A DNA stretch of 64,000 nucleotides from a bacterium (GTDB lineage: Bacteria > Patescibacteriota > Minisyncoccia > UBA6257 > GWB1-50-10). Position 1 is the stretch's first letter. Every line of letters begins with the position of its first letter. The notes beneath the pieces were generated by a model, which worked only from the letters and a program-made list of their open reading frames with translations, did no database searches and was not told where the DNA came from. Shown one piece after another: positions 6,806 to 18,694 of the stretch. The DNA is taken from positions 7,009 through 71,008 of the forward strand of contig JAKAID010000002.1 in assembly GCA_021814545.1 (NCBI GenBank), written 5' to 3'. Position numbers and translations under genes: made by a program.

Positions 6806-7843
6806 TTATAACGGAACAGAATACGGCTGAAAATTTTCATTTATTCTGATGGGCGCCAGGCGGACCGAATCTATTGCGTGCCGCCACACATTAACGTGAA
6901 GCATCGCACCACGGTTCGTTTCTTCCGAAAAAGTCTGATCAAACACGAAATTGCCGAGACTGTACGCTATCCACCCGCCGTGGTACTGCTGGAGCTCCTC
7001 AACAACGTGAGGATGGTGCCCCACGACGAGGTCCGCGCCCGCGTCTATGAGTTGTTCGCCGAACGCACGCTGCGCATCGGTAGCGCGCGTACGGTATTCC
7101 TGCCCCCAGTGGACCGTTACCACGACCACGTCCGCCTCCCTGTGCAAACGCCGCACGGCGGCAAGAAGCACTTCGGCATCGGAATTGCTCGTACCCGCCC
7201 TATCACCCTGTGCCTCATAGCTTTTGGGGTTAAGGTTCGTATATCCAACGAACGCAACGCGGGCCCCCGGGAGGTCCACGATGAGCGGCGCGTTCGCCTC
7301 TTCTTCATTTCTCCCCGCGCCAACCGTATGAATATCCGCGTTATGCAAAATGCCCACCGTATCGCGCAGCGCCTCGCGCCCCCAATCGAAAATATGATTA
7401 TTGGCGAGTGTAACTGCATCGAATCCCGCGAATAAAAGCCCCTCGACGAAGCGGGGGGCGGCCCGAAATGAGTACGGGTTGCCCATATCTTTTCCGCCCT
7501 CCGAAAGAGGGCCCTCGAGATTCCCGAGAAAGAACGATGCGGGCGCGGTCGTGCTCGCAATAAGCCTAAAAGGAAACGCGTAATCACCGCCGCGGCGCAC
7601 AACCTCGCCCGCAACACCCCGCGAGAGCATCACGTCGCCCGCAAAAAGAATGGTGCTCGATGCGCGCGCCTCCTGCACAGCATCCGCTGCAAGCGTCGCC
7701 TCAACCCGTGCTGCCACACCGCGCGCCTGCGTCGCGGCAAAAAGCGATGCTTGATACGCACCGCGCAGCTCATATGCGCGCATGAACACGGTACCCATCA
7801 AGAGGACGAGCGCCGCAAAAAGCAGTACGGATACAGCACGCAT
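6806..7843 (-). CDS. CapA/PGA_cap-family metallophosphoesterase (poly-gamma-glutamate capsule synthesis-like), N-terminal TM anchor
   Basis: Motifs GNLEGPLSEGG, FDAVTLANNHIFDWG and VVVTVHWGQEY. Start refined to the internal ATG at 7843, which has an AAGGAG SD. The ORF track extends to 7870. Confidence 0.8.
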   Translation of the reverse strand: MRAVSVLLFAALVLLMGTVFMRAYELRGAYQASLFAATQARGVAARVEATLAADAVQEARASSTILFAGDVMLSRGVAGEVVRRGGDYAFPFRLIASTTAPASFFLGNLEGPLSEGGKDMGNPYSFRAAPRFVEGLLFAGFDAVTLANNHIFDWGREALRDTVGILHNADIHTVGAGRNEEEANAPLIVDLPGARVAFVGYTNLNPKSYEAQGDRAGTSNSDAEVLLAAVRRLHREADVVVVTVHWGQEYRTRATDAQRAFGEQLIDAGADLVVGHHPHVVEELQQYHGGWIAYSLGNFVFDQTFSEETNRGAMLHVNVWRHAIDSVRLAPIRINENFQPYSVPL

Positions 7844-7853
7844 GAAATGCTCC

Positions 7854-8870
7854 TTAAAGGAGTGCCGCAACGCGCTTGGTGTGCTCTACAAGCGTTGCCA
7901 CATAGCCTGCCTCGTTGTCATACCAAGAAAGCACCTTCACCAGATTCCCCCCCACCACCTTGGTGAATCCGAGGTCCACGATGGCACCGTACGGCTCGCC
8001 TATCACATCGGTCGAAACGATCTGCTCGTCAGTAACCTTCAAAATATTCTTCCACTTCGGGTCCTTCGCCGCGTTCCTAAAAATCTCGTTCACCTCCTCA
8101 ACGGTCGTGTTGCGCTTCGCGATAAAGGTGATATCCGCGAGCGAGCCCGTCACCACGGGCACGCGTATCGCGATGCCGTCAAATTTTCCTTCAAGTGATT
8201 TGAATGCGCGAGTGACCGCGATCGCGGCGCCCGTTGTTGATGGAGAAATATTTTGCGCTGCCGCCCTGCCCAGTCGGTAATCTTTGCCCTTCGTGGGGCC
8301 GTCCACAACCGATTGCCGCGCGGTGTACGCGTGGACCGTATTTAAAATAGCCTTCTCAATCCCTGGATTCTCCGCCATCACCTGAATGACCGGCGAAGTC
8401 GCGTTCGTGGTGCACGAGGCGTTCGAGGTTATTGCAACCGTCTTCGCCTCCGCCTCGTTCACGCCGAGAAGCACCGTTTTCCCGAGCACGCCATCCGCGT
8501 CTTTCGCAGGAGCGGTAATAACGACGCGCTTCGCACCCGCATCAAGGTGTACCCTTGCCTTTTCATATGCCTCGAACACGCCGGAAGATTCAACGACGAT
8601 GTCGATATCCAGCTTCTTCCAGGGCAGCTTCGCGGGGTCCTTCTCCTGCAGAAAAATGATTTCCTTCCCGTCCACCACGAGCATCGAATCATGGAAGGTG
8701 ACCTCGCCCGGATAGCGCCCATACGCCGTATCGTATTTCAAAAGATACGCGAGGTTCCCCACGTCGCCGAGATCGTTGATTGCCACGACATTGAACTGCG
8801 GGTCCTTCAACGCATTCTTTAAAAAGAGCCTCCCTATCCTCCCGAACCCATTAATCGCGATATTTACCAT
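7854..8870 (-). CDS. gap: Glyceraldehyde-3-phosphate dehydrogenase
   Basis: Begins MVNIAINGFGRIGR with an SNASCTTN active-site region. The N-terminal 122 aa of ORF 7854..9236 is a spurious extension that overlaps the neighbouring MFS gene. Confidence 0.9.
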   Translation of the reverse strand: MVNIAINGFGRIGRLFLKNALKDPQFNVVAINDLGDVGNLAYLLKYDTAYGRYPGEVTFHDSMLVVDGKEIIFLQEKDPAKLPWKKLDIDIVVESSGVFEAYEKARVHLDAGAKRVVITAPAKDADGVLGKTVLLGVNEAEAKTVAITSNASCTTNATSPVIQVMAENPGIEKAILNTVHAYTARQSVVDGPTKGKDYRLGRAAAQNISPSTTGAAIAVTRAFKSLEGKFDGIAIRVPVVTGSLADITFIAKRNTTVEEVNEIFRNAAKDPKWKNILKVTDEQIVSTDVIGEPYGAIVDLGFTKVVGGNLVKVLSWYDNEAGYVATLVEHTKRVAALL

Positions 8871-8908: not shown

Positions 8909-10108
8909 CTATTCCCTGAATCGCACGTTCATGAGCACGAGGAACATAACAAGCCCGGCAAATGACATGGAGGCCGCGTAGACGAGCGCCGCTTGTGCGC
9001 TGATATACGTCCACAGCACGCCGCCTATCGTACCCGCAAGGAGTGCGGAAATGCCCACGGCAGCATTCAAAAAGCCCTGCCCGGTCGCTCGTATCTGCGG
9101 GTCGACAAGGCGCGCTACCATCGCGCGCTGAATACCGTCGGTCGCCGCGTTGAAGACGCCGATGAGCACAAAGCTCGCGAAAAGCCCCCAGAAACTCTGC
9201 GCAACGATGAGCCAAAGGTATGCAACGAGCGCACACATGAATCCAATGCTCACGATCTTCCGTTTCCCGAACGTATCGGCGAATTTACCGAAGGGAATGG
9301 ACGCGGTCACGCGCGCAAAATTCGCCACGAGATAGAAGAGCGGTACGCTTGCAACGCCAAGCCCCACCTCAGGAGAGCGAAGCACGAGAAGGGAGAGCGG
9401 CAACGCGCCAAGACCGAATACGAACACGGAGATGAGGAACACAACGAACCGCCTGTTGTCGCGCAGCAGTTTAATATCGAATCGCGGCGCGGTGGCGCCG
9501 TCGGGCCGTTTCACCTCGCGGACGAAAAGAAACGTGAGGACGCCGCAAATGCCTACTACGAATGCGACAAGAAAAATAGTGTGATAGGAGTAATACACGA
9601 GCGGAAACAATATGAACGCAGCAAGCGGCCCCAGCGTTCCGCCTATCGCATCCATCGCCCGATGATAACCGAAAGAAAAGCTTACGGTCTGCGGCGTGGT
9701 CGATTCTGAAATGAGCGCGTCGCGGGGCGCGTCGCGCATCCCCTTACCTACCCGGTCTATCGCACGAAGAACGAATACATCTCCATAGCCGCGAGCGAAT
9801 ATTAAAAAGGGGCGCGTGCTCGTGGAGAGAAGGTAGCCGAATACCGCGAAGGATTTTCTGCGGTTCATGACGTCCGAAATCCAGCCGAAAAATATCTTCA
9901 GCGTGCTTGCGATGGCATCCGCAACCCCCTCTATCACGCCGACCACTACAATAGGGGCACCGAGTACGCTCGTTAAGAACACGGGCATAATAGCCTGCAC
10001 CATCTCGGAAGACAGGTCGTTGAACATGCTCACGAGTCCGAGCAAAAATACATTACGCTCAAGCCCGAAAATCATTTTTTGCTCGCGAACAGTGTCAGGA
10101 GTGGTCAT
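8909..10108 (-). CDS. MFS transporter
   Basis: 399 aa with ~12 predicted TM segments and an MFS motif-A-like FGWISDVMNRRKSF. Confidence 0.8.
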   Translation of the reverse strand: MTTPDTVREQKMIFGLERNVFLLGLVSMFNDLSSEMVQAIMPVFLTSVLGAPIVVVGVIEGVADAIASTLKIFFGWISDVMNRRKSFAVFGYLLSTSTRPFLIFARGYGDVFVLRAIDRVGKGMRDAPRDALISESTTPQTVSFSFGYHRAMDAIGGTLGPLAAFILFPLVYYSYHTIFLVAFVVGICGVLTFLFVREVKRPDGATAPRFDIKLLRDNRRFVVFLISVFVFGLGALPLSLLVLRSPEVGLGVASVPLFYLVANFARVTASIPFGKFADTFGKRKIVSIGFMCALVAYLWLIVAQSFWGLFASFVLIGVFNAATDGIQRAMVARLVDPQIRATGQGFLNAAVGISALLAGTIGGVLWTYISAQAALVYAASMSFAGLVMFLVLMNVRFRE

Positions 10109-11092: not shown

Positions 11093-11130
11093 AAAATAAA
11101 AACCCCCGTACGCAGGATTGCGGTCGGGGG
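11093..11130 (-). terminator. Rho-independent terminator closing the tRNA operon
   Basis: Hairpin CCCCCGtacgcaggattgcggtCGGGGG on the plus strand, followed on the minus strand by TTTTATTTT. Confidence 0.5.
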
Positions 11131-11132
11131 AA

Positions 11133-11280
11133 AGTGGCAAGGAGGGTTCGAACCCCCATCTCCTTCGCTTAACTTCAGGACGAACACGTTGGGCGGGAGA
11201 GCGGGAGCCGCACTCGTCGCATTATAGAAGCGTGTTCAAGAACCTGGCGCAAAGGGCTCTACCTATTGAGCTATTGCCGT
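11133..11280 (-). tRNA. tRNA-like gene with a ~75-nt insertion in the anticodon-arm region
   Basis: Minus strand: ACGGCAA-T-A-GCTC-AATAGGTA-GAGC D-arm and GGGGG-TTCGAAC-CCTCC T-arm. A 5-nt variable loop (GAGAT) and a candidate anticodon stem CTTTG/CGAAG enclose ~82 nt. The two acceptor-terminal pairs are mismatched in my reading. Confidence 0.4.
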
Positions 11281-11287
11281 ACAGGAA

Positions 11288-11374
11288 TTCGGGAGGGGGG
11301 AATTGAACCCCCAGCCTCGCCAGCTGCGGAAACTCACACAGGGGTGGCGCGCTCTGCCGTTGAGCTACTCCCGA
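11288..11374 (-). tRNA. tRNA gene (class I arms) with a 22-nt anticodon 'loop' (15-nt insertion)
   Basis: Minus strand: TCGGGAG-T-A-GCTC-AACGGCA-GAGC-G-CGCCA-[CCCCTGTGTGAGTTTCCGCAGC]-TGGCG-AGGCT-GGGGG-TTCAATT-CCCCC-CTCCCGA-A. The acceptor stem, D-arm and T-arm all pair perfectly. Confidence 0.55.
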
Positions 11375-11466: not shown

Positions 11467-11905
11467 CTAAAATGGTGGTTCTTCAGAGGGGGGTGCCTCC
11501 CCCTTCTCCTCGTTCCGATTCTCGCGAAGGAGCCTGGGCTTTGAAATACCGTACGGCCCCGAAATGAGCGAGGTGTAATCCATAATCGCCTTCCGCGGTA
11601 CACGAAGCGCGCCGTGGTCGACTCTCCGATGGTGCGAGTTGCACGTCCATACGACCACGAACGGACAGCCGTAGTCCACGTGATGCGCATCGCCGAGCGG
11701 GAGTCGGTCGATTGGCGCATGGGGCCCCTCTCTTCCAAGAAGTTCTCGCACGCAGAAGTAGCAAGGCTGCCGCTTGATGCGGCAAGAACGGCCGCGCCTG
11801 AAGTTCGCCGGCGTATCGACATGCGCCCGAAAAAGCCTGGTTGCGCGGTCTCGATCTGCTTTACTCCATCGCTTCCCCTCTTTTGTCTTCCACTTATCGT
11901 TCATG
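11467..11905 (-). CDS. HNH endonuclease
   Basis: CRIKRQPCYFC...HAPIDRLPLGDAHHVDYGCPFVVVWTCNSHH matches the C-x2-C...H...N...HH HNH layout. Start placed at MNDKWK; the upstream part of ORF 11467..12105 overlaps the next gene. Confidence 0.65.
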
Positions 11906-12638
11906 GGAAAAGCTCCTTCTGCACGAAGCGGAGAGAACCGCCGGCGCCCACACCGTGCGCATTCACGACGATACTTTTTGCGGGACGCTCCGTGCCGCAG
12001 CAAAGCCGGCACTTCACGCACTGCACGCCACACGTTTCGTAAGGGCAGCGTACCTCGCCAGGATGCACCGCGAAACTCGGAAGCTTCATCCGAAATGTGC
12101 GCCATCCCCTCCTACGCGCCTCGAGATACCCCTCGGTCGTCTCAACGCTCGCCATGAGAAGATGCCTGAAACGCTCATCGCAGGTGCGCCACGCGTGCGT
12201 ATACCCGGTCCAATTATCAACGCGCACGAGAAGCTCGTTCCACACATCGAACGGCACCGCCGCGGGGTCTCCGTACGAACCCACCCGCACCGGCTTTCCC
12301 GCAAGCGCGATACGCGCCTCGATGAGCGAAAGCGCACGATACCGTTCCATGTGCTGCCCGTGCAGCCACGCAAGATACGCCGCGTAGCAGACCCGCTTCG
12401 CGCCACGACCCGTAAGCGCGCAATCGCCGCACACATCGTGTTCGCGCGGAGTACCGAAATCAAGCGAAGGGTTCCTGCCCTGCGGGAGCACCGATATCTG
12501 GACCATCGGTCCCGTCTTCTCGTTCACCGACTTGAGGTCGATGCCGGTCATGACGACCTGCACAGGATTCCCCGTAAAAACGGAGGGTCCGCGCCAGACG
12601 ACAGCCGAGCGCCTGGTACTGATGCCTCTCTCACTCAT
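11901..12638 (-). CDS. Hypothetical Cys-rich protein, translationally coupled to the HNH gene
   Basis: 245 aa. C-terminal cluster CPYETCGVQCVKCRLCCG. No family recognised. Confidence 0.5.
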   Translation of the reverse strand: MSERGISTRRSAVVWRGPSVFTGNPVQVVMTGIDLKSVNEKTGPMVQISVLPQGRNPSLDFGTPREHDVCGDCALTGRGAKRVCYAAYLAWLHGQHMERYRALSLIEARIALAGKPVRVGSYGDPAAVPFDVWNELLVRVDNWTGYTHAWRTCDERFRHLLMASVETTEGYLEARRRGWRTFRMKLPSFAVHPGEVRCPYETCGVQCVKCRLCCGTERPAKSIVVNAHGVGAGGSLRFVQKELFP

Positions 12639-12708
12639 GCATGCTCCTTTTGTTAGTTGTCAAAGTACTCTCCCGTTATATCAGAGCGAACGATGAGAAG
12701 CAATTCTT

Positions 12709-12739
12709 AAAAATAAAAACCCCGTGGGTTACCACGGGG
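12709..12739 (-). terminator. Rho-independent terminator of paralog P1
   Basis: CCCCGTGGgttaCCACGGGG followed by a T-run on the minus strand. Confidence 0.5.
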
Positions 12740-12755
12740 TATGATGCACGGCCGT

Positions 12756-13475
12756 TCAGGCGGGCGCGTTGCACTTCCGCATCGACGTCATCCCGACGTT
12801 CCATGCGCGGCGGTTCCCCCAGTCGCTCATGACGCGAAGACCGAACGCGTCGAAATAGCCGACAAGGACGCGCTCGCCCCCCGCGGTGCTGTCCGCGCAG
12901 CGCGCGTAGAGCGGCTCGGCGAAAATGCGCTCGCCGGTAGCGAGGAAGTGGGTGATTGCGATGTAGATGGCGATACGTGCCGACGCGGAAACCTCGCCCG
13001 CGTCCAGCACATTGAGCTGCTCACTCACCACCTTCTCGGTAGACGAGGGCACAGACGCCTTGCGCACCAGACACCAGCGGGCAGACCCGCGCTCGTTCGC
13101 GAACGGCTCGTCCGCGAGGTGGAACGCCGGGAAGAACGCGCTTGGCTGCCCCTTGCGCATCTCGTTCACCGAGATTGCGGGGACGAGTGCAAGCACGTGC
13201 GTATCCTTACAGCGCTTCAGCACACGCGCCGAGAAGGGCACATCCTGGAGCCGCGCGCGCTCCGCGAAGGTGAGCTCGATGCCAAACCACTCGTACGCAT
13301 CGATGACATCGAGCATGTTCGGCCCCATGATCCTCTTCGCGCGAAGAAGCGAAATGAGACTGTCCGACGGTCCGAAGATGACCGGCTTCAGCACCGCGAA
13401 CAGAATGAAGAGGCTGGCCACCACAAGAACCGAAAAAACCGCGAGCAGCTTGAAGACCTCCTGATACTGCGCCAT
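12756..13475 (-). CDS. Paralog P1 of an uncharacterised membrane-anchored family (N-terminal TM helix; motifs IMGPNML, CKDTHVL, WCLVR, IAITHFL, YARCAD)
   Basis: 239 aa. Aligns to P2-P5 along its whole length. Confidence 0.7.
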   Translation of the reverse strand: MAQYQEVFKLLAVFSVLVVASLFILFAVLKPVIFGPSDSLISLLRAKRIMGPNMLDVIDAYEWFGIELTFAERARLQDVPFSARVLKRCKDTHVLALVPAISVNEMRKGQPSAFFPAFHLADEPFANERGSARWCLVRKASVPSSTEKVVSEQLNVLDAGEVSASARIAIYIAITHFLATGERIFAEPLYARCADSTAGGERVLVGYFDAFGLRVMSDWGNRRAWNVGMTSMRKCNAPA

Positions 13476-13518
13476 ATGAACCTCCGAACGCTTCGAGAAA
13501 CCTGCTGTAAAAGAACGT

Positions 13519-13551
13519 TTTTAGTACAGCATAAATAATTTATTCAGTCAA
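13519..13551 (-). promoter_or_regulatory. Promoter of P1
   Basis: Minus strand TTGACT-N17-TGTACTAAA with an AGGAGG-type SD before the ATG. Confidence 0.45.
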
Positions 13552-13587
13552 CAAAACCCCCCTCGCACGATTGGTGTGCAAGGGGGT
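13549..13587 (-). terminator. Terminator of paralog P2
   Basis: CCCCCTcGCACgattggtGTGCaAGGGGG hairpin plus a T-run. Confidence 0.45.
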
Positions 13588-13593
13588 GAATAA

Positions 13594-14280
13594 CTACCCT
13601 ACTTCGAGGTCGGGAACACGCTCGGACGCGAGTCCGAGGTCGCCGGAGAAATAACCCGCCCAGTACCTGCGGACCGAGAGTCCGCGGCCGTAACCGAACA
13701 TGCCGACCGCGAGGGTGTCCTGGCCAAGCGCGTCTCCGCAGCGGACGAACACCTGTTCGAAGAGCCGCTCGCCCACCTTGAGGTAGTGCGCGATCACGAG
13801 ATACGCGACCGTCCGCGCGAGCGGCACCTGCTCGCGCTCCGGAAGGTATGTGCGCTGCTCCGCCTCCGAAAGCCCCACCGTACCGCGCACGAACGCTCGC
13901 CGCACGAGGTGCCAGGAAGGCCGACCGAAAACGGCGGCGAAGTTCTCGTTCAGGAACCAGCTCGTGTTGTTGTCGAAGAGCTTGGGCTGAAAAGACCGGA
14001 GTGCGTTGATGGACAACGGAAGACACGCCACGAGGATGTGCGTGTCCTTGCAGGCTCTCAACGTCCGTGCCGAGAACGGCACGCGCGCGAGCGCCCCCGC
14101 CCACTCTTCCTTCGTCACAATGCTGAGCTCGACGAACGCGTGCTCGGGACCAAAGAAGTTGCGCCCCATGATCTTCTTTGCGCGTTGCACCGACCCCGGC
14201 CTGAAGTACTGCCAGAGCTGCGCGAGCGCGAGCGCGGCAAGCGCCGCCACGACGCAAACGACAATGAATCCCATGTGCAC
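13594..14280 (-). CDS. Paralog P2 of the same family
   Basis: 228 aa with IMGRNFFGP, CKDTHILVACLPLS, WHLVRR, YLVIAHYL, VFVRCGD and a C-terminal VPDLEVG. Confidence 0.7.
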   Translation of the reverse strand: MHMGFIVVCVVAALAALALAQLWQYFRPGSVQRAKKIMGRNFFGPEHAFVELSIVTKEEWAGALARVPFSARTLRACKDTHILVACLPLSINALRSFQPKLFDNNTSWFLNENFAAVFGRPSWHLVRRAFVRGTVGLSEAEQRTYLPEREQVPLARTVAYLVIAHYLKVGERLFEQVFVRCGDALGQDTLAVGMFGYGRGLSVRRYWAGYFSGDLGLASERVPDLEVG

Positions 14281-14321
14281 CTCCTAAAAAAGCGTGAACT
14301 TCATTTTGTTAATGAACAAAA

Positions 14322-14351
14322 ATAATCTACCATTAATATGATTTTTGTCAA
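14322..14351 (-). promoter_or_regulatory. Promoter of P2
   Basis: Minus strand TTGACA-N16-TAGATTAT, with an AGGAGG SD before the start. Confidence 0.4.
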
Positions 14352-14382
14352 TAAACACTCCCGCATGAATTTCATGCGGGAG
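14350..14382 (-). terminator. Terminator of paralog P3
   Basis: CTCCCGCATGaatttCATGCGGGAG hairpin. Confidence 0.4.
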
Positions 14383-14391
14383 CATTGCGAA

Positions 14392-15204
14392 CTACCCGTG
14401 CCGGCGAAGCAGAAGGTCCGGCTCCCGCTCAGTCGCAAGGCCGATGCGAGAATCCGCGACATCATCACGAACGCCGTAGAAGTGGACGGAACTGTGCGGG
14501 TCAAACTCGCCCACGCACACGCGCTCGCCCATGCGGTTGAAGGAGGAGCTCCGCACACAGTAGCCGCGGAACAGCCACTCGTCCGTGGCGAAAAAGTACC
14601 CCATGATGGCGTATGCGAGGATGCGCGCGGAAAGCATCCGCTCCCCCGCCTCGACGAACTTCCCCTGTTCGCGGAGCGTTCGCCCGCGCGAGGTGGCGAC
14701 CGGCTCCCGGCGAATGAGGTGCCACCCTATCTCCTCGCTTGCGCCGCGGTCCTTCAGAAAGGACTCGTGCAACCGCTCGGTGCGGTCGAGATCGAAGAAC
14801 GGTCCCGCCACGTAGAGGCTTCGATAGCTCGCCACGCGGTCCGCGACGAGCTCCTGTATATCCTTGAAGGAAACGGGAAGCACCGCGACGAGAACGTGCG
14901 TGTCCTTGCAGTCCTTCAGCGTGCCCCTTAAGAAGGGCACCCTCTTGAACACGCGCACGTAATCGTGGGAGAGCTTCTCTCCGAAAAAGCAGAACGCGGC
15001 GGGGACGCTGAAAAAATTCTGCCCCATAATTTTGCGCGCCTCGTTCCACGAAACTTCTCCCCTGCGGCGAAGCTGTATGAAGCGCGGCACGACATACCAC
15101 GCAAAAACGAACGCGGCGGGGAACAAGAGGAACACCGCAAAAACGAGCGCCTCCGCTCGAAGATACGCGGGGTTCGTGGTCGCCTGCCTTACCAGTGCAA
15201 ACAT
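14392..15204 (-). CDS. Paralog P3 of the same family
   Basis: IMGQNFFSV, CKDTHVLVAVLPVS, WHLIRR, YVRS and a C-terminal EREPDLL. Start refined to MHMFALV, which has AAGGAGG 6 nt upstream. The ORF track start at 15336 would run through P4's terminator. Confidence 0.65.
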   Translation of the reverse strand: MFALVRQATTNPAYLRAEALVFAVFLLFPAAFVFAWYVVPRFIQLRRRGEVSWNEARKIMGQNFFSVPAAFCFFGEKLSHDYVRVFKRVPFLRGTLKDCKDTHVLVAVLPVSFKDIQELVADRVASYRSLYVAGPFFDLDRTERLHESFLKDRGASEEIGWHLIRREPVATSRGRTLREQGKFVEAGERMLSARILAYAIMGYFFATDEWLFRGYCVRSSSFNRMGERVCVGEFDPHSSVHFYGVRDDVADSRIGLATEREPDLLLRRHG

Positions 15205-15290
15205 ATGCATCCTCCTTGGGTGGTGAAGTGGGCTGCGTGTAGTGTTAAGGTACGCCTTCAGAAAACCACTTTCTTGGCCACCCGTCAATA

Positions 15291-15323
15291 TAAAACAAAA
15301 CCCCGCGCAAATAGTACGCGGGG
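15291..15323 (-). terminator. Terminator of paralog P4
   Basis: CCCCGCGcaaatagtaCGCGGGG hairpin followed by a T-run. Confidence 0.5.
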
Positions 15324-15339
15324 CAATAGGCAACACCGT

Positions 15340-16101
15340 TCACGGAAGCTCGGGGGGCTGCGCGAGTGCAACACCGAGGAGCAGATACTGCCCGTTATCA
15401 TCGAAGCCGCAGCGGATGCTGAACCCCCGTTCGCGCTCGAAGAGACCGAGGCAAACCCGCCCGTTCCCGGACCCCACGTCCGCGGTGCGCACGTAGCAGT
15501 CCTGGAACAAACGCCCGCCCCCCTTCAGAAAGTGGGCGATGACGACGTACGCGAGCACGCGCACGCAGGGCACGTACTCCTGTGGCGCAAGCGCGCGCTG
15601 GATGTCCCAGGGCTTGCCGCGCAACTCGTACGCGGACTCCTTCCGGATGAGATACCACCCCGGCCTCCCCCGCACGTGCGCGAACGGCTCCTTCCTGAAC
15701 CACTCCTCGTTGTAACCGTTGAAGCACTTGTTGATGAGGGGCACATAGAGGACCTCGGTCAGCAGCTCCGTAAGCGAAAGCGGGAGAACTGCCACGAGAA
15801 CGTGCGTGTCCTTGCACGCCTCAAGCGTACTCTTCTTGAAGGGAATGCACCGCAATGCTTCGCGCCACGACCGCGCGACCTTCTGCGGGATGAGGTCGTG
15901 GTGGAAGTAGCGGAACGCATCCCCTACTCCGAAAAAATTCTGCCCCATCACCATACTCGCTTCCTTGTGCGAAACGCGATTGCGGAGGCGACGGATGATG
16001 CCACCCGCAACGTCGCGCATGTCGGCGAGGCTGAAATACATGACGAACAAGAACGCGAAGAAGAAGATGAGCACGATGACTTCGATGAATCCTCTCTCCA
16101 T
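15340..16101 (-). CDS. Paralog P4 of the same family
   Basis: VMGQNFFGV, CKDTHVLVAVLPLS, WYLIRK, YVVIAHFL, YVRTAD and a C-terminal PPELP. Start refined to MERGFIEVIV, which has a TM helix and an AAGGAG SD. Confidence 0.7.
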   Translation of the reverse strand: MERGFIEVIVLIFFFAFLFVMYFSLADMRDVAGGIIRRLRNRVSHKEASMVMGQNFFGVGDAFRYFHHDLIPQKVARSWREALRCIPFKKSTLEACKDTHVLVAVLPLSLTELLTEVLYVPLINKCFNGYNEEWFRKEPFAHVRGRPGWYLIRKESAYELRGKPWDIQRALAPQEYVPCVRVLAYVVIAHFLKGGGRLFQDCYVRTADVGSGNGRVCLGLFERERGFSIRCGFDDNGQYLLLGVALAQPPELP

Positions 16102-16149
16102 AACGCACTCCTTTCGGGAATAAGCGCATTGGTAGTTGTTAACGTACGC

Positions 16150-16182
16150 CATCAGTACACCACCGATGCGCTTTGATGTCAA
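16150..16182 (-). promoter_or_regulatory. Promoter of P4
   Basis: Minus strand TTGACA-N17-TGTACTGAT. Confidence 0.45.
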
Positions 16183-16214
16183 TAAAAAGCCCCCGTCGCA
16201 CAGATGCGCAGGGG
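16181..16214 (-). terminator. Terminator of paralog P5
   Basis: GC-rich hairpin GCCCCcgtcgcacagatgcgcaGGGGC with a T-run. Confidence 0.4.
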
Positions 16215-16225
16215 CGGGATATGGG

Positions 16226-17035
16226 TTAGGCGAACCGCAAGTCCGGAAGCTGTTCGGCAGTGATGGAGGCAATCATGAGGCGGCTCTCATTGGGGTCGCC
16301 GGACGCAACCATGAGCCTGCTCACACCGAGGCCGGTCTTCTCGCCGAAACATCCGACCGCGACGTGCACGCCGCGCGAATCGGTGTCCGCACAGCGCACA
16401 TAGTCGTCCTTGAAGAGGCGTGCGCCGTCCGCATGCCGCGTGCGCAAGTAATGCGCAATGATGACGTAGACCATCACCCGCGCGCTAACCGGCACCTCGT
16501 CATCTTTGAGAAGTGCGAGCTGCGAAGACCACTTCTTGAACTCGGAATCCCTGATGGGCGCCGAGCGCACGAGGTGCCACCCGGCCACGCCCTTGTCGAG
16601 CGCGAACGGCTCGTGCTCGTACCACATGCCATCGCAGTCGTCACCATGCGTGTACGAAAAGAGCGAACGCGCCACCCCGCGCCGGATGTCGACGATCGAC
16701 ATCGCCGGCACCGCGAAGAGCATGTGCGTCTTCCTACAACGCTTCAGCGTCTCTTCGCTCCACGGGACTTCACCCATTGCGGAGAACACGTCGCCGTCCT
16801 CGTGATTCGGGTGTAGCCACAACCGTGTATCCGAAGGCCCGAAGTAGCGCGCGCCCATGATGGCGCGAGCGCGTTCGAGCGTGGCGCCCCTCTTCTTGCG
16901 CGGGCGGCGCGGGCTCGCATCGAGCGCGAGGAGTGCTGCGCAGCGGCTCGCAAAGCTCATAATCGCAAACGCGATAACCGCGACCACGAACGCAATACCG
17001 ATGCTCGCGCCAAGCGCGAGAAGCCGGTTTCCCAT
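16226..17035 (-). CDS. Paralog P5 of the same family
   Basis: 269 aa with IMGARYFGP, CRKTHMLFAVPAMS, WHLVRS, YVIIAHYL, YVRCADTD and a C-terminal LPDLRFA. N-terminal TM helix. Confidence 0.7.
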   Translation of the reverse strand: MGNRLLALGASIGIAFVVAVIAFAIMSFASRCAALLALDASPRRPRKKRGATLERARAIMGARYFGPSDTRLWLHPNHEDGDVFSAMGEVPWSEETLKRCRKTHMLFAVPAMSIVDIRRGVARSLFSYTHGDDCDGMWYEHEPFALDKGVAGWHLVRSAPIRDSEFKKWSSQLALLKDDEVPVSARVMVYVIIAHYLRTRHADGARLFKDDYVRCADTDSRGVHVAVGCFGEKTGLGVSRLMVASGDPNESRLMIASITAEQLPDLRFA

Positions 17036-17084
17036 GCATACCTCCGATGTAAGGGCTGTCCTGCCTTGTTTTCAACGAGCGTGT

Positions 17085-17116
17085 ATCAGTACACCAAAAA
17101 TAAGCGCCGCCGTCAA
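17085..17116 (-). promoter_or_regulatory. Promoter of P5
   Basis: Minus strand TTGACG-N17-TGTACTGAT, the same architecture as the P1 and P4 promoters. Confidence 0.45.
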
Positions 17117-17151
17117 TAACAACGCCGCCCGAAGCACATTCGAGCGGCGTA

Positions 17152-17824: not shown

Positions 17825-18694
17825 CTACTTCGAGGGTGGGAATTGCTTCATACAGCCCCTCTGGATCTTCTCCGCCTCGTCGTCGGAAAGAGGCGCAGTC
17901 ACATCAAGCTTCAACTGCTCCCTACGCTTCATGTTGGCAACCCTCATACATCGGTAAAACGGTTCGCGATGCTGGACGTCCGAACACGCATAGAGCCCCA
18001 TAACGGGTCCGAAACGGCGCATCGTGGCCGCATCCTTGAGCCTGATGTTGGAGTGGTCGCTATAGATGAACTTCCGGAGTTGAACCTCATCGATTGCAGA
18101 AGTGTTCGGCGGGCAGTTCTTTCCAAATTTCTTCACCGCCCGCTCGACCGCGGCCGTGAGCTCCTCGGCCTTCACTTCCCACTCCGGACGCATCATGACC
18201 TTGTTCTCTGGGTCGGCAGCCTGCGCACGCGACACGAGGCACTGACAACGATCCTGCTCAGCTTTGGTCGTGTCTTTGACGCAGGTGAAGTAGAAGTTCT
18301 TCTGCTCCACCCAATCTCCCGGGACGGGCTTGCCTCGCCCATTGCAGCTCGTCATGAAGTCGCGAAGCGTTTGGCTCGGCCCAAACTGCGCGGACTGCGT
18401 GCTCCCGCCGTCGGCGCACGCCCCCGAGACCGCCACGAGGCGCTGCTTCATCTCGGCCTCGGACTGCGGAGGGCGAGGGTTCTTCTGCTCCGCCTTCTCG
18501 ACGAGGCACGCGCAGAGCTTCAGAGCCTGCTGGTTCGCGGCCTCTGTCTTGAGAGGCCCGAGCTTCATGATGAACTCGGAGGTCTTCTCGAGCTCGCAGG
18601 ACACGAGCGCCCCGCGGTGGGTATCCGCCGGCCAGGCGGCGTATGCCGGAACCGACACGACGAAAGAAGCGAGCAGCATGAAGATGAACCTCAT
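17825..18694 (-). CDS. Secreted Cys-rich hypothetical protein (signal peptide; two CxC-containing repeats)
   Basis: 289 aa. N-terminal MRFIFMLLASFVVSVPAYA, and two copies of a ...LKLCACLV... / ...DRCQCLV... motif. Confidence 0.55.
   Translation of the reverse strand: MRFIFMLLASFVVSVPAYAAWPADTHRGALVSCELEKTSEFIMKLGPLKTEAANQQALKLCACLVEKAEQKNPRPPQSEAEMKQRLVAVSGACADGGSTQSAQFGPSQTLRDFMTSCNGRGKPVPGDWVEQKNFYFTCVKDTTKAEQDRCQCLVSRAQAADPENKVMMRPEWEVKAEELTAAVERAVKKFGKNCPPNTSAIDEVQLRKFIYSDHSNIRLKDAATMRRFGPVMGLYACSDVQHREPFYRCMRVANMKRREQLKLDVTAPLSDDEAEKIQRGCMKQFPPSK

What the first reader, a model, noticed from the sequence alone, without database searches (positions are those of the whole stretch)
12709..17116. 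Tandem array of five divergent paralogs of an unrecognised membrane-anchored protein family, each with its own promoter and terminator
P1-P5 (228-270 aa) all carry an N-terminal TM helix and a ~200-aa domain. Shared motifs are IMGxNFFG, PFxxxTLxxC[KR]DTH[VIM]L, WxLxR, VxIAHYL, LFxxxYVRCxD, VGxF and a C-terminal EPDL. Pairwise identity is low apart from these anchors, so the copies are diversified rather than recent duplicates. The duplicated unit includes the promoter (near-identical in P1, P4 and P5) and a GC-rich hairpin terminator (all five). I recognise no family and none of the usual enzyme signatures I checked (NTase, Fic, HEPN-like spacing). A hyper-variable tandem array of single-pass proteins inside an accessory island fits a diversifying function such as poly-immunity, phage-defence or receptor-masking, or surface variation. 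This is the strongest candidate for an undescribed system in the window.
Basis: seen in the sequence. Interest (0 to 1): 0.85.

Follow-up and report, generated by a model that had tools for sequence, protein, structure and literature searches.

The report
Retroelement-less array of DGR-target lectin-fold proteins
The five tandem genes are real, membrane-anchored paralogs of an uncurated but large protein family with a C-type-lectin fold. In many candidate-phyla-radiation bacteria this family is the target of diversity-generating retroelements (DGRs), but here no retroelement is present, so the five copies form a fixed set rather than a new kind of system.

Summary
Five minus-strand paralogs of 226-270 aa, 28-35% identical, each have an N-terminal hydrophobic helix, a hairpin/T-run terminator and a TTGAC promoter-like site.

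No Pfam, NCBIfam, PHROG, PADLOC or PDB sequence match exists. The family is nonetheless large: 3,727 clusters at 50% identity, almost all in Patescibacteria.

In 26 of 59 related genome loci, the last ~120 nt of the gene is a variable repeat (VR). It is paired with a template repeat (TR) ~350-500 nt downstream, and the mismatches fall almost only at TR adenines. bAvd and a reverse transcriptase (RT) follow. This is a canonical diversity-generating retroelement.

The window differs from these loci:
- It has no RT, Avd, TR or post-VR element, and neither do ~10 kb beyond each end.
- The copies have diverged along their whole length.
- The 8.2-kb region is identical in two assemblies and over the 7.6 kb held by a third.

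In a neighbour-joining tree the five form one long-branched clade, sister to DGR-less relatives.

Verdict: a DGR-independent, membrane-tethered tandem expansion of a known kind of protein. The ligand and the membrane orientation are unknown.

The parts
16226..17035 (-). P1, 269 aa. N-terminal hydrophobic helix plus a CLec-fold domain of the CPR DGR-target family. The VR-equivalent segment carries insertions.
   Evidence: HMM E 1e-73
15340..16101 (-). P2, 253 aa (= P0001). Same architecture as P1.
   Evidence: E 2e-74
14392..15204 (-). P3, 270 aa. Same architecture; the most divergent copy.
13594..14280 (-). P4, 226 aa from the ATG at 14274 (228 aa from the GTG at 14280). Same architecture.
12756..13475 (-). 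P5, 239 aa (= P0002). This copy was modelled: pLDDT 90.5, C-type-lectin/FGE fold.
12756..12905 (-). Example of a VR-equivalent segment: the last ~48 codons of P5. The homologous segments are the 3' ~150 nt of P1-P4. It aligns to the DGR variable repeat of relatives but has no cognate template repeat.
12719..12740 (-). Hairpin plus T-run terminator after P5.
13558..13586 (-). Hairpin plus T-run terminator after P4, directly followed by a TTGACT -35-like hexamer for P5.
14322..14385 (-). Hairpin after P3 (seen in the sequence), followed by the TTGACA...TAGATT promoter-like site for P4.
15300..15324 (-). Hairpin plus T-run terminator after P2, followed by a TTGACG -35-like hexamer for P3.
16177..16217 (-). 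Hairpin plus T-run after P1 (seen in the sequence), followed by a TTGACA -35-like hexamer for P2.
17036..17150 (-). Region upstream of P1: terminator of the preceding 73-aa gene, TTGACG, TGGTGTACTGA, then the ribosome-binding site.

Best explanation
The array is a lineage-specific tandem expansion of a C-type-lectin-fold protein family. In many Patescibacteria (CPR) genomes this family is the variable (target) protein of a diversity-generating retroelement.

Shown:
- In relatives, the C-terminal ~40 residues of the family are rewritten by adenine-specific mutagenic retrohoming from a template repeat placed between the gene and avd/RT.
- The fold is CLec/FGE-like.
- In this window the five copies have no RT, Avd, TR or post-VR element in cis. 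They have diverged along their whole length and are invariant between assemblies.
- Each copy has gained an N-terminal hydrophobic anchor, and each has its own terminator and promoter-like site.

Inferred:
- The five proteins are ligand-binding modules tethered to the cytoplasmic membrane. Their binding surface is the former VR region, where residues at the positions that DGRs mutate are essentially random between copies.
- The cell therefore carries five hard-wired specificities, made by duplication and ordinary divergence, instead of one gene diversified by a retroelement.
- Charge distribution puts K/R-rich flanks after the helix in at least three copies. This favours an N-out/C-in orientation, with the lectin domain on the cytoplasmic face, but it is not settled.
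- The ligand is unknown.
For: Homology:
- The profile of P1-P5 finds ~250-aa proteins at E 1e-50 to 1e-64.
- An exhaustive search gives 3,727 cluster representatives at E<=1e-3 and 810 at E<=1e-30.
- The family occurs at 59 loci in GTDB species representatives, nearly all Patescibacteria.

DGR linkage in relatives:
- bAvd and RVT_1 lie next to the homolog in L001, L008 and L009, and Avd or RT in 25 fetched loci overall.
- 29 VR/TR pairs in 26 fetched loci have at least 80% of mismatches at TR adenines; for example, all 13 mismatches inside the L001 repeat are at TR adenines.
- The VR is always the last 111-126 nt of the gene where the contig holds it whole.
- TRs are rich in AAC codons.

Fold:
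- AF2 gives pLDDT 90.5 and pTM 0.81.

Absence of a DGR here:
- tblastn and profile HMMs for RT and Avd give only noise in the window and in ~10 kb beyond each end.
- No A-biased repeat exists in the window.
- The CTTGA...YTTGAGSSYT element that follows the gene in 23 fetched loci is absent from the window.
- The 3' ends of the five genes are not alignable as one VR.
- The region is identical in three assemblies.

History:
- The five copies are monophyletic with long branches, and their sister loci L057 and L059 are DGR-less.
- At the 11 TR-Asn/Lys columns the copies are 9% identical pairwise. At scaffold columns of the same segment they are 29% identical, against 66% in DGR-linked homologs. 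This fits a former VR that is no longer refreshed from a TR.

Anchor: hydropathy and flanking charges.
Against: - Only about 84 kb of one contig was examined. An RT/TR elsewhere in the genome, acting on a remote target, cannot be excluded.
- Identity between assemblies is consensus-level and says nothing about minority variants in the reads.
- Variable residues at binding-site positions would also arise without any DGR ancestry.
- A few family members carry Sec signal peptides or a lipobox. This argues that the domain can work outside the cell and weakens the C-in reading.
- No ligand, expression or localisation data exist.
Confidence: 0.72

Rival explanations
1. The five genes are live DGR targets, diversified in trans by a retroelement encoded elsewhere in the genome (remote targets).
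For: About half of the family's loci in other genomes also lack an adjacent RT. Roux 2021 (PMC8144416) notes that remote targets exist and that standard searches miss them. The residues at DGR-variable positions differ completely between the five copies.
Against: - The five VR-equivalents differ from each other by indels and by scaffold substitutions, so one TR could match at most one of them.
- The post-VR element conserved in 23 fetched loci is missing.
- No TR-like A-biased repeat lies in 64 kb.
- The consensus sequence is identical in three assemblies, and exact copies of P5 are on 14 contigs.
- Core and VR-equivalent segments are about equally diverged.
Confidence: 0.1
2. The proteins are FGE/EgtB-like enzymes, or another catalytic use of the fold, anchored to the membrane rather than binding modules. 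The near-invariant CKDTH motif and the Cys of YVRC would be catalytic or metal-binding residues.
Confidence: 0.08
3. A poly-immunity, anti-toxin or phage-defence gene array. A related version is a prophage-borne superinfection-exclusion or receptor-masking set.
For: The genes form a tandem divergent array. The neighbour at 11901-12638 matches phage family phrog_2554 (E 1.4e-60), and an HNH-like ORF and a tRNA lie next to it.
Against: There is no toxin, integrase or other phage gene nearby. There are no PADLOC hits. No relative of the family was found in 2.9 million viral contigs. The family's recurrent partner is a DGR, not a toxin.
Confidence: 0.05

Closest known systems
Target (variable) proteins of CPR/Patescibacteria DGRs: clade 2 of Roux et al. 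2021 (PMC8144416); 'CPR set', architecture B3, of Wu et al. 2018 (PMC5758913)
   Same: Direct homologs at 36-46% identity, with the same ~200-aa domain and the same C-terminal scaffold xRVxVGxF...GL.V...G[VL]. Relatives have the target-TR-avd(-)-RT(+) layout with A-specific VR/TR mismatches.
   Different: The window copies have no RT, Avd, TR or post-VR element. They carry an N-terminal hydrophobic anchor where most relatives have a ~60-aa soluble leader. They end in ...E[RQ]xP[DE]L instead of ...SARK. There are five copies, diverged along their whole length. I did not match the family to a named target cluster or UVR class of these papers.
Treponema denticola TvpA (2Y3C), Bordetella phage Mtd (1YU0) and Thermus TaqVP (5VF4): structurally solved DGR variable proteins
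   Different: No detectable sequence similarity. The domain context differs: TvpA is a lipoprotein and Mtd is a trimeric phage tail-fibre tip. Here no retroelement accompanies the genes.
FGE-sulfatase / EgtB C-terminal domain / DUF1566 (Lcl C-terminal domain) superfamily
   Different: No Pfam match to PF03781 or DUF1566 even at E<=1. Foldseek is not significant. Catalytic residues were not assessed.
Multi-target DGR loci and tandem family arrays in other genomes (L014, L017, L032, L011, L051)
   Same: Two to four tandem copies of the same family.
   Different: In L014 and L017 both copies match one TR, and in L017 they stay 79% identical. The L011 and L051 copies are 58-81% identical, with variation concentrated in the VR segment. 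The window copies are ~35% identical everywhere.

Membership tests
Protein family targeted by CPR DGRs (homology) | Significant full-length sequence similarity to proteins whose 3' end is a verified VR | tested here: met
   The family HMM scores P1-P5 at E 1e-73 to 7e-80. They are 36-46% identical to DGR-linked homologs. VR/TR pairs are verified in 26 fetched loci.
Protein family targeted by CPR DGRs (homology) | C-type-lectin fold that holds the variable residues | tested here: met
Active diversity-generating retroelement (system) | DGR-type reverse transcriptase (RVT_1), usually with bAvd, near the target | tested here: not met
   tblastn and RT/Avd profile HMMs with --max give only noise over the 64-kb window and over ~10 kb beyond each end. 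The rest of the genome could not be searched.
Active diversity-generating retroelement (system) | TR/VR repeat pair with mismatches at TR adenines | tested here: not met
   The same script that found 29 pairs in 26 fetched loci found none in the window. The repeat finder shows only protein-level paralogy.
Active diversity-generating retroelement (system) | Conserved element or hairpin immediately 3' of the VR (a candidate target-recognition element in this clade) | tested here: not met
   CTTGA N2-12 YTTGAGSSYT occurs just after the gene in 23 fetched loci (one has a hit elsewhere instead) and has 0 matches in the window. The window has ordinary terminator hairpins only. That this element works in target recognition is my inference.
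Active diversity-generating retroelement (system) | Population-level hypervariation confined to the VR | tested here: inconclusive
   The consensus of three assemblies is 100% identical over 7.6-8.2 kb, and P5 is present as an exact copy on 14 contigs.
FGE-sulfatase (PF03781) / DUF1566 | Match to the Pfam model at the gathering threshold | tested here: not met
   There are no such hits even at E<=1.
Single-pass membrane protein | One N-terminal hydrophobic helix of about 19 or more residues | tested here: met
   Mean Kyte-Doolittle hydropathy over 19 residues is 2.4-3.0 in all five. AF2 models residues 2-34 of P5 as a single helix.
Single-pass membrane protein | Orientation (in or out) of the lectin-fold domain | not testable with these tools
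   Charge counts give 4 K/R in the 15 residues after the helix in P2-P4, against 0-2 before it. This favours N-out/C-in. Signal-peptide and lipobox members of the family exist. No topology predictor or experiment was available.
Toxin-immunity or anti-phage defence array | Adjacent toxin or effector, or a match to known defence families | tested here: not met
   There are no PADLOC hits. Neighbours carry no toxin domains.

The most novel reading that the evidence does not exclude
The array records an evolutionary switch from retroelement-driven, somatic-like diversification of one lectin-fold receptor to a germline multigene repertoire of five fixed specificities. Gain of a membrane anchor went with the switch.

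If the charge-predicted N-out/C-in topology is right, these would be lectin-fold sensors tethered to the cytoplasmic face of the membrane. That would bear on a question Roux et al. 2021 left open: whether CPR DGR targets are membrane-bound and on which side they act.
Probability: 0.3. Interest if true: 0.55.

Novelty: new variant of a known kind. Interest (0 to 1): 0.4.

Why it matters
CPR DGR targets are among the most abundant hypermutated proteins in groundwater and other aquatic microbiomes. Yet they have no recognised domain, no known localisation and no known ligand (Roux 2021, PMC8144416; Wu 2018, PMC5758913).

This analysis contributes three things:
- It assigns one large, unnamed family of them (3,727 clusters at 50% identity) to the CLec/FGE fold.
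- It defines the family's VR scaffold and a conserved element after the VR.
- It shows that the family also exists as DGR-less, membrane-anchored tandem paralogs.

Fixed, anchored copies like these are easier to express and to screen for ligands than a hypervariable gene. They also give a natural comparison of what happens to a VR once no template refreshes it. For the genome scan itself, the candidate drops from 'undescribed system' to a variant of a known kind.

Tried and rejected
- Pfam, NCBIfam, PHROGs and PADLOC scans of the five proteins, and a PDB sequence search with their alignment profile, gave no meaningful hit.
- A scan of viral contigs (IMG/VR) for the family found no relatives, so a phage origin was rejected.
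- Foldseek against the PDB was not significant. The afdb50 library was unavailable.
- RT/Avd searches of the window by tblastn and by profile HMM gave only noise.
- A search for a shared TR among the five 3' ends failed; they do not align as one repeat.
- The idea that the VR-equivalent segment alone is hyper-diverged was rejected: 31.0% identity there against 35.7% in the core.
- The idea that the array lies in an island integrated at tRNA-Gly was rejected. The array is on the 5' side of the tRNA, and I saw no integrase gene or att-like repeat.
- Paul et al. 2017 (Nat Microbiol) could not be retrieved.
- A first neighbour-joining tree on full-length sequences split P3 from the others through midpoint rooting on its long branch. 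The domain-only tree recovers monophyly. Neither tree has bootstrap support.
- dN/dS between copies was not attempted, because ~30% identity is saturated and no orthologs above 50% identity exist.
Full report
**1. Observation**

The minus strand between 12,756 and 17,035 carries five head-to-tail ORFs:
- P1: 16226-17035
- P2: 15340-16101
- P3: 14392-15204
- P4: 13594-14274/14280
- P5: 12756-13475

Start codons were chosen by ribosome-binding-site spacing. For P2-P4 the lengths differ from the longest ORFs, and they agree with the gene calls of two independent assemblies.

The five proteins align over their whole length at 28-35% identity with 26 invariant columns. The C-terminal [EP]P[DE]L motif is present in four of the five.

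An HMM of the family finds exactly these five copies, and no fragments, in the six-frame translation of the window (E 1e-73 to 7e-80).

Each protein starts with a 19-residue segment of mean Kyte-Doolittle hydropathy 2.4-3.0.

The consensus scan finds hairpin plus T-run terminators after P2, P4 and P5. Those after P1 and P3 are plain in the sequence.

The intergenic regions align as hairpin, T-run, TTATTGAC, about 17 nt, TGGTGTACTGA, GTaCnTTaACAAC, AGGAG. The terminator/TTGAC junction also occurs at unrelated neighbouring genes, so part of this is genome style.

GC is about 0.60 in the array against about 0.55 around it.

**2. What the family is**

Pfam, NCBIfam, PHROGs, PADLOC and a PDB sequence search give nothing.

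A word-indexed search with the alignment found 25 unnamed proteins of about 250 aa. The exhaustive profile search shows the family is in fact large: 3,727 cluster representatives at E<=1e-3 and 810 at E<=1e-30.

A scan of GTDB species representatives gave 59 loci. Nearly all are Patescibacteria (Paceibacterota, Saccharibacteria, Peribacteria and others), with a few in Planctomycetota, Verrucomicrobiota and other phyla. None was found in IMG/VR viral contigs.

**3. The decisive context**

In the first long contig examined (L001), the homolog is followed by a bAvd gene on the opposite strand and an RVT_1 reverse transcriptase. The same holds in L008 and L009.

The last 123 nt of the L001 gene are repeated 490 nt downstream, in the spacer before avd, at 89% identity. 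All 13 mismatches inside the repeat lie at adenines of the downstream copy. This is the signature of a diversity-generating retroelement, with a variable repeat (VR) in the gene and a template repeat (TR) next to the RT.

A script applied to all fetched loci found 29 such pairs in 26 loci, each with at least 80% of mismatches at TR adenines. The VR is always the last 111-126 nt of the family gene where the contig holds it whole. Avd or RT is present in 25 fetched loci. Three loci have two family genes served by one TR (L014, L017, L032).

Translated TRs read LDSDGNRVNVGNFDAKGLNVNNNWDDNRNDNIGVSSARQ, with 11-13 AAC (Asn) codons.

This gene order (target-TR-avd(-)-RT(+)) appears to match architecture B3, which Wu et al. 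2018 report for 90% of their CPR set (PMC5758913). The Patescibacteria restriction matches 'DGR clade 2' of Roux et al. 2021 (PMC8144416). Roux et al. note that these targets lack any recognisable transmembrane or other conserved domain, and leave open whether they are membrane-bound. I did not match the family to a named target cluster or VR class in either paper.

**4. Fold**

AlphaFold2 on P5 with a 28-sequence family alignment gave mean pLDDT 90.5 and pTM 0.81.

- the DGR variable proteins TvpA (7.8), Mtd (6.6) and TaqVP (5.6)

**5. What is, and is not, in this window**

- No RT or Avd is detectable by tblastn or by profile HMMs built from 15 RTs and 13 Avds of the related loci, run without filters. 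The same holds for about 10 kb beyond each end of the window, fetched from the same genome.
- No adenine-biased repeat exists in the window. The repeats found in the array are only those expected from protein paralogy.
- The 3' ends of the five genes cannot be aligned as copies of one VR. They differ by indels and by many non-adenine positions.
- In related loci the gene is followed by a conserved element of CTTGA repeats with a small hairpin and then a strong terminator hairpin. A pattern for it matches just after the gene in 23 fetched loci and nowhere in the window. That this element serves target recognition is my inference.
- The 8.2-kb region is 100.000% identical in an NCBI and an ENA assembly, and over the 7.6 kb held by a Logan assembly of another run. 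P5 occurs as an exact copy on 14 contigs.

**6. History of the copies**

Each window paralog is its own 50%-identity cluster. Each is closer to DGR-linked homologs of other genomes (36-46% identity) than to its neighbours in the array. This is the pattern expected for long branches.

In a neighbour-joining tree of the domain, the five form one clade with long branches. Their sister group is L057 plus L059, both without a DGR within 6 kb. There is no bootstrap support; an earlier full-length tree was distorted by rooting.

Divergence is spread evenly, with 35.7% identity in the core and 31.0% in the VR-equivalent segment. Other tandem sets of the family remain 58-81% identical in the core and differ more in the VR segment.

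Within the VR-equivalent segment, the 11 columns that are Asn/Lys in TRs are 9% identical between the window copies. Scaffold columns are 29% identical, against 66% in DGR-linked homologs.

I read this as follows. The binding-site positions are as scrambled as in live DGR targets, but the scaffold, no longer re-copied from a template, has drifted. About 25 of the 59 genome loci also lack RT/TR despite flanks of at least 5 kb, so DGR-less members are common.

**7. The anchor**

Most family members have a soluble leader of about 60 aa.

Among 173 sequences retrieved by the two searches, 15 have an N-terminal window of hydropathy >=1.8, and five of those are the window paralogs. Of the rest:
- three look like Sec signal peptides (P0055, P0062, P0114)
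- one has a lipobox (P0104)
- three look like anchors (P0102, P0132, P0146)
- three score inside the domain rather than at the N-terminus (P0083, P0126, P0167)

One verified DGR target, the second copy in L014, has a signal peptide. P0146, another anchored member, has no RT on its 7.5-kb contig.

In the window copies the flank before the helix is nearly uncharged. The 15 residues after it carry 4 K/R in P2-P4, and P1 has RRPRKKR a little further on. By the positive-inside rule this favours N-out/C-in, with the lectin domain on the cytoplasmic face. I hold this loosely, at about 55:45. Part of that charge belongs to the conserved ARxIMG helix of the domain, and exported members exist.

**8. Mechanism proposed**

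Shown:
- homology to DGR targets
- the CLec fold
- absence of DGR parts in cis
- individual transcription signals
- the anchor

Inferred: five membrane-tethered binding modules with five fixed specificities, generated by duplication and ordinary divergence from a DGR-type ancestor. The ligand is unknown. The literature proposes cell-cell, cell-phage or sensor roles for such targets (PMC8144416, PMC10907252).

Rivals:
- Trans-acting DGR, confidence 0.10. It is disfavoured by the mutual dissimilarity of the five 3' ends, the missing post-VR element and the invariance between assemblies.
- Catalytic FGE-like function, confidence 0.08. The near-invariant CKDTH motif is unexplained.
- Immunity or defence array, confidence 0.05. 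There is no toxin, no PADLOC hit, and the family's recurrent partner is a DGR.

**9. Comparison and novelty**

The proteins work like, and are homologs of, DGR variable proteins. They are not part of a DGR system as far as about 84 kb shows.

Three things are new relative to the literature I could read:
- an explicit CLec/FGE fold assignment for this domain-less CPR target family
- anchored, DGR-less tandem paralogs of it
- the decay pattern of a VR without its template

This is a new variant of a known kind, not a categorically new system. Interest is 0.4.

**10. Limits**

- The organism is known only as MAG GCA_021843285.1. Its placement in Patescibacteria is inferred from the family's distribution and from gene content.
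- The rest of the genome, read-level variation, topology and ligand could not be tested.

Noticed in passing
L001:9580-12812: The complete DGR cassette (target, TR, avd, RT) is bracketed by a 56-nt direct repeat at 9580-9635 and 12695-12750. The right copy overlaps the 3' end of tRNA-Ser(GGA) at 12728-12812. A serine recombinase gene lies just upstream, at 6819-8141. This looks like a ~3.1-kb DGR cassette inserted as a mobile unit at a tRNA gene.
   Followed up: partly
L001:10737-10754 and the equivalent position just after the gene in 22 other fetched loci (e.g. L012:6588-6605, L017:6588-6630): A conserved element lies immediately 3' of the VR: CTTGA repeats, a small GAGGGCTTGnCCCTC hairpin, then a strong terminator hairpin. 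It may be the target-recognition or cruciform element of this DGR clade. It is absent from the window.
   Followed up: partly
L051:3271-6582 (Pirellulales MAG JASGKB010000024.1): Four tandem copies of the same family in a non-CPR genome. They have no hydrophobic N-terminus and no RT within 6 kb. Identity is 58% in the core against 44% in the VR-equivalent segment. The ...GLASSVLPDKS tails resemble the window's ...GLASERVPDL.
   Followed up: partly
L014:4713-5579: This family member has a Sec-type signal peptide (MTKLFRVFLVSLMFLGIIVAPVLAEQ) and is a verified DGR target: 14 of 16 mismatches lie at TR adenines. At least some members are therefore exported.
   Followed up: no
window:11467-12638 (-): A 245-aa Cys-rich protein at 11901-12638 (CPYETCGVQCVKCRLCCG) matches the C-terminal half of phage family phrog_2554 at E 1.4e-60. 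An overlapping 145-aa ORF at 11467-11904 has a weak HNH-endonuclease-like match. The pair sits between the array and the tRNA. No other phage genes are nearby.
   Followed up: partly
window:11129-11374 (-): tRNA-Gly(CCC) at 11288-11374 is 87 nt long, which is unusually long for this tRNA type. About 155 nt downstream, at 11129-11158, a 30-nt segment is 70% identical to its 3' part. Neither ARAGORN nor Rfam calls this second segment a tRNA.
   Followed up: no
window:17484-17702 (-): A 72-aa ORF two genes upstream of P1 begins MKRVTTLNDARKILGVENVVVLG. This recalls the family motif ARKIMGxNFFG, but the family HMM does not detect it.
   Followed up: partly
window:19079-23518 (-) and 17825-18694 (-): A 1,479-aa protein with LTD and PKD domains and an N-terminal hydrophobic segment, and a 289-aa Cys-rich protein with an N-terminal hydrophobic stretch, lie just upstream of the array. 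They would be cell-surface neighbours if the array's domains face outward.
   Followed up: no
window:13476-17160 intergenic regions: Besides the -35/-10-like boxes, a conserved GTaCnTTaACAAC block lies between the promoter-like site and the ribosome-binding site of P1, P2, P3 and P5, with a looser form before P4. It also precedes the phrog_2554-like gene. It may be a shared 5'-UTR or operator element.
   Followed up: no
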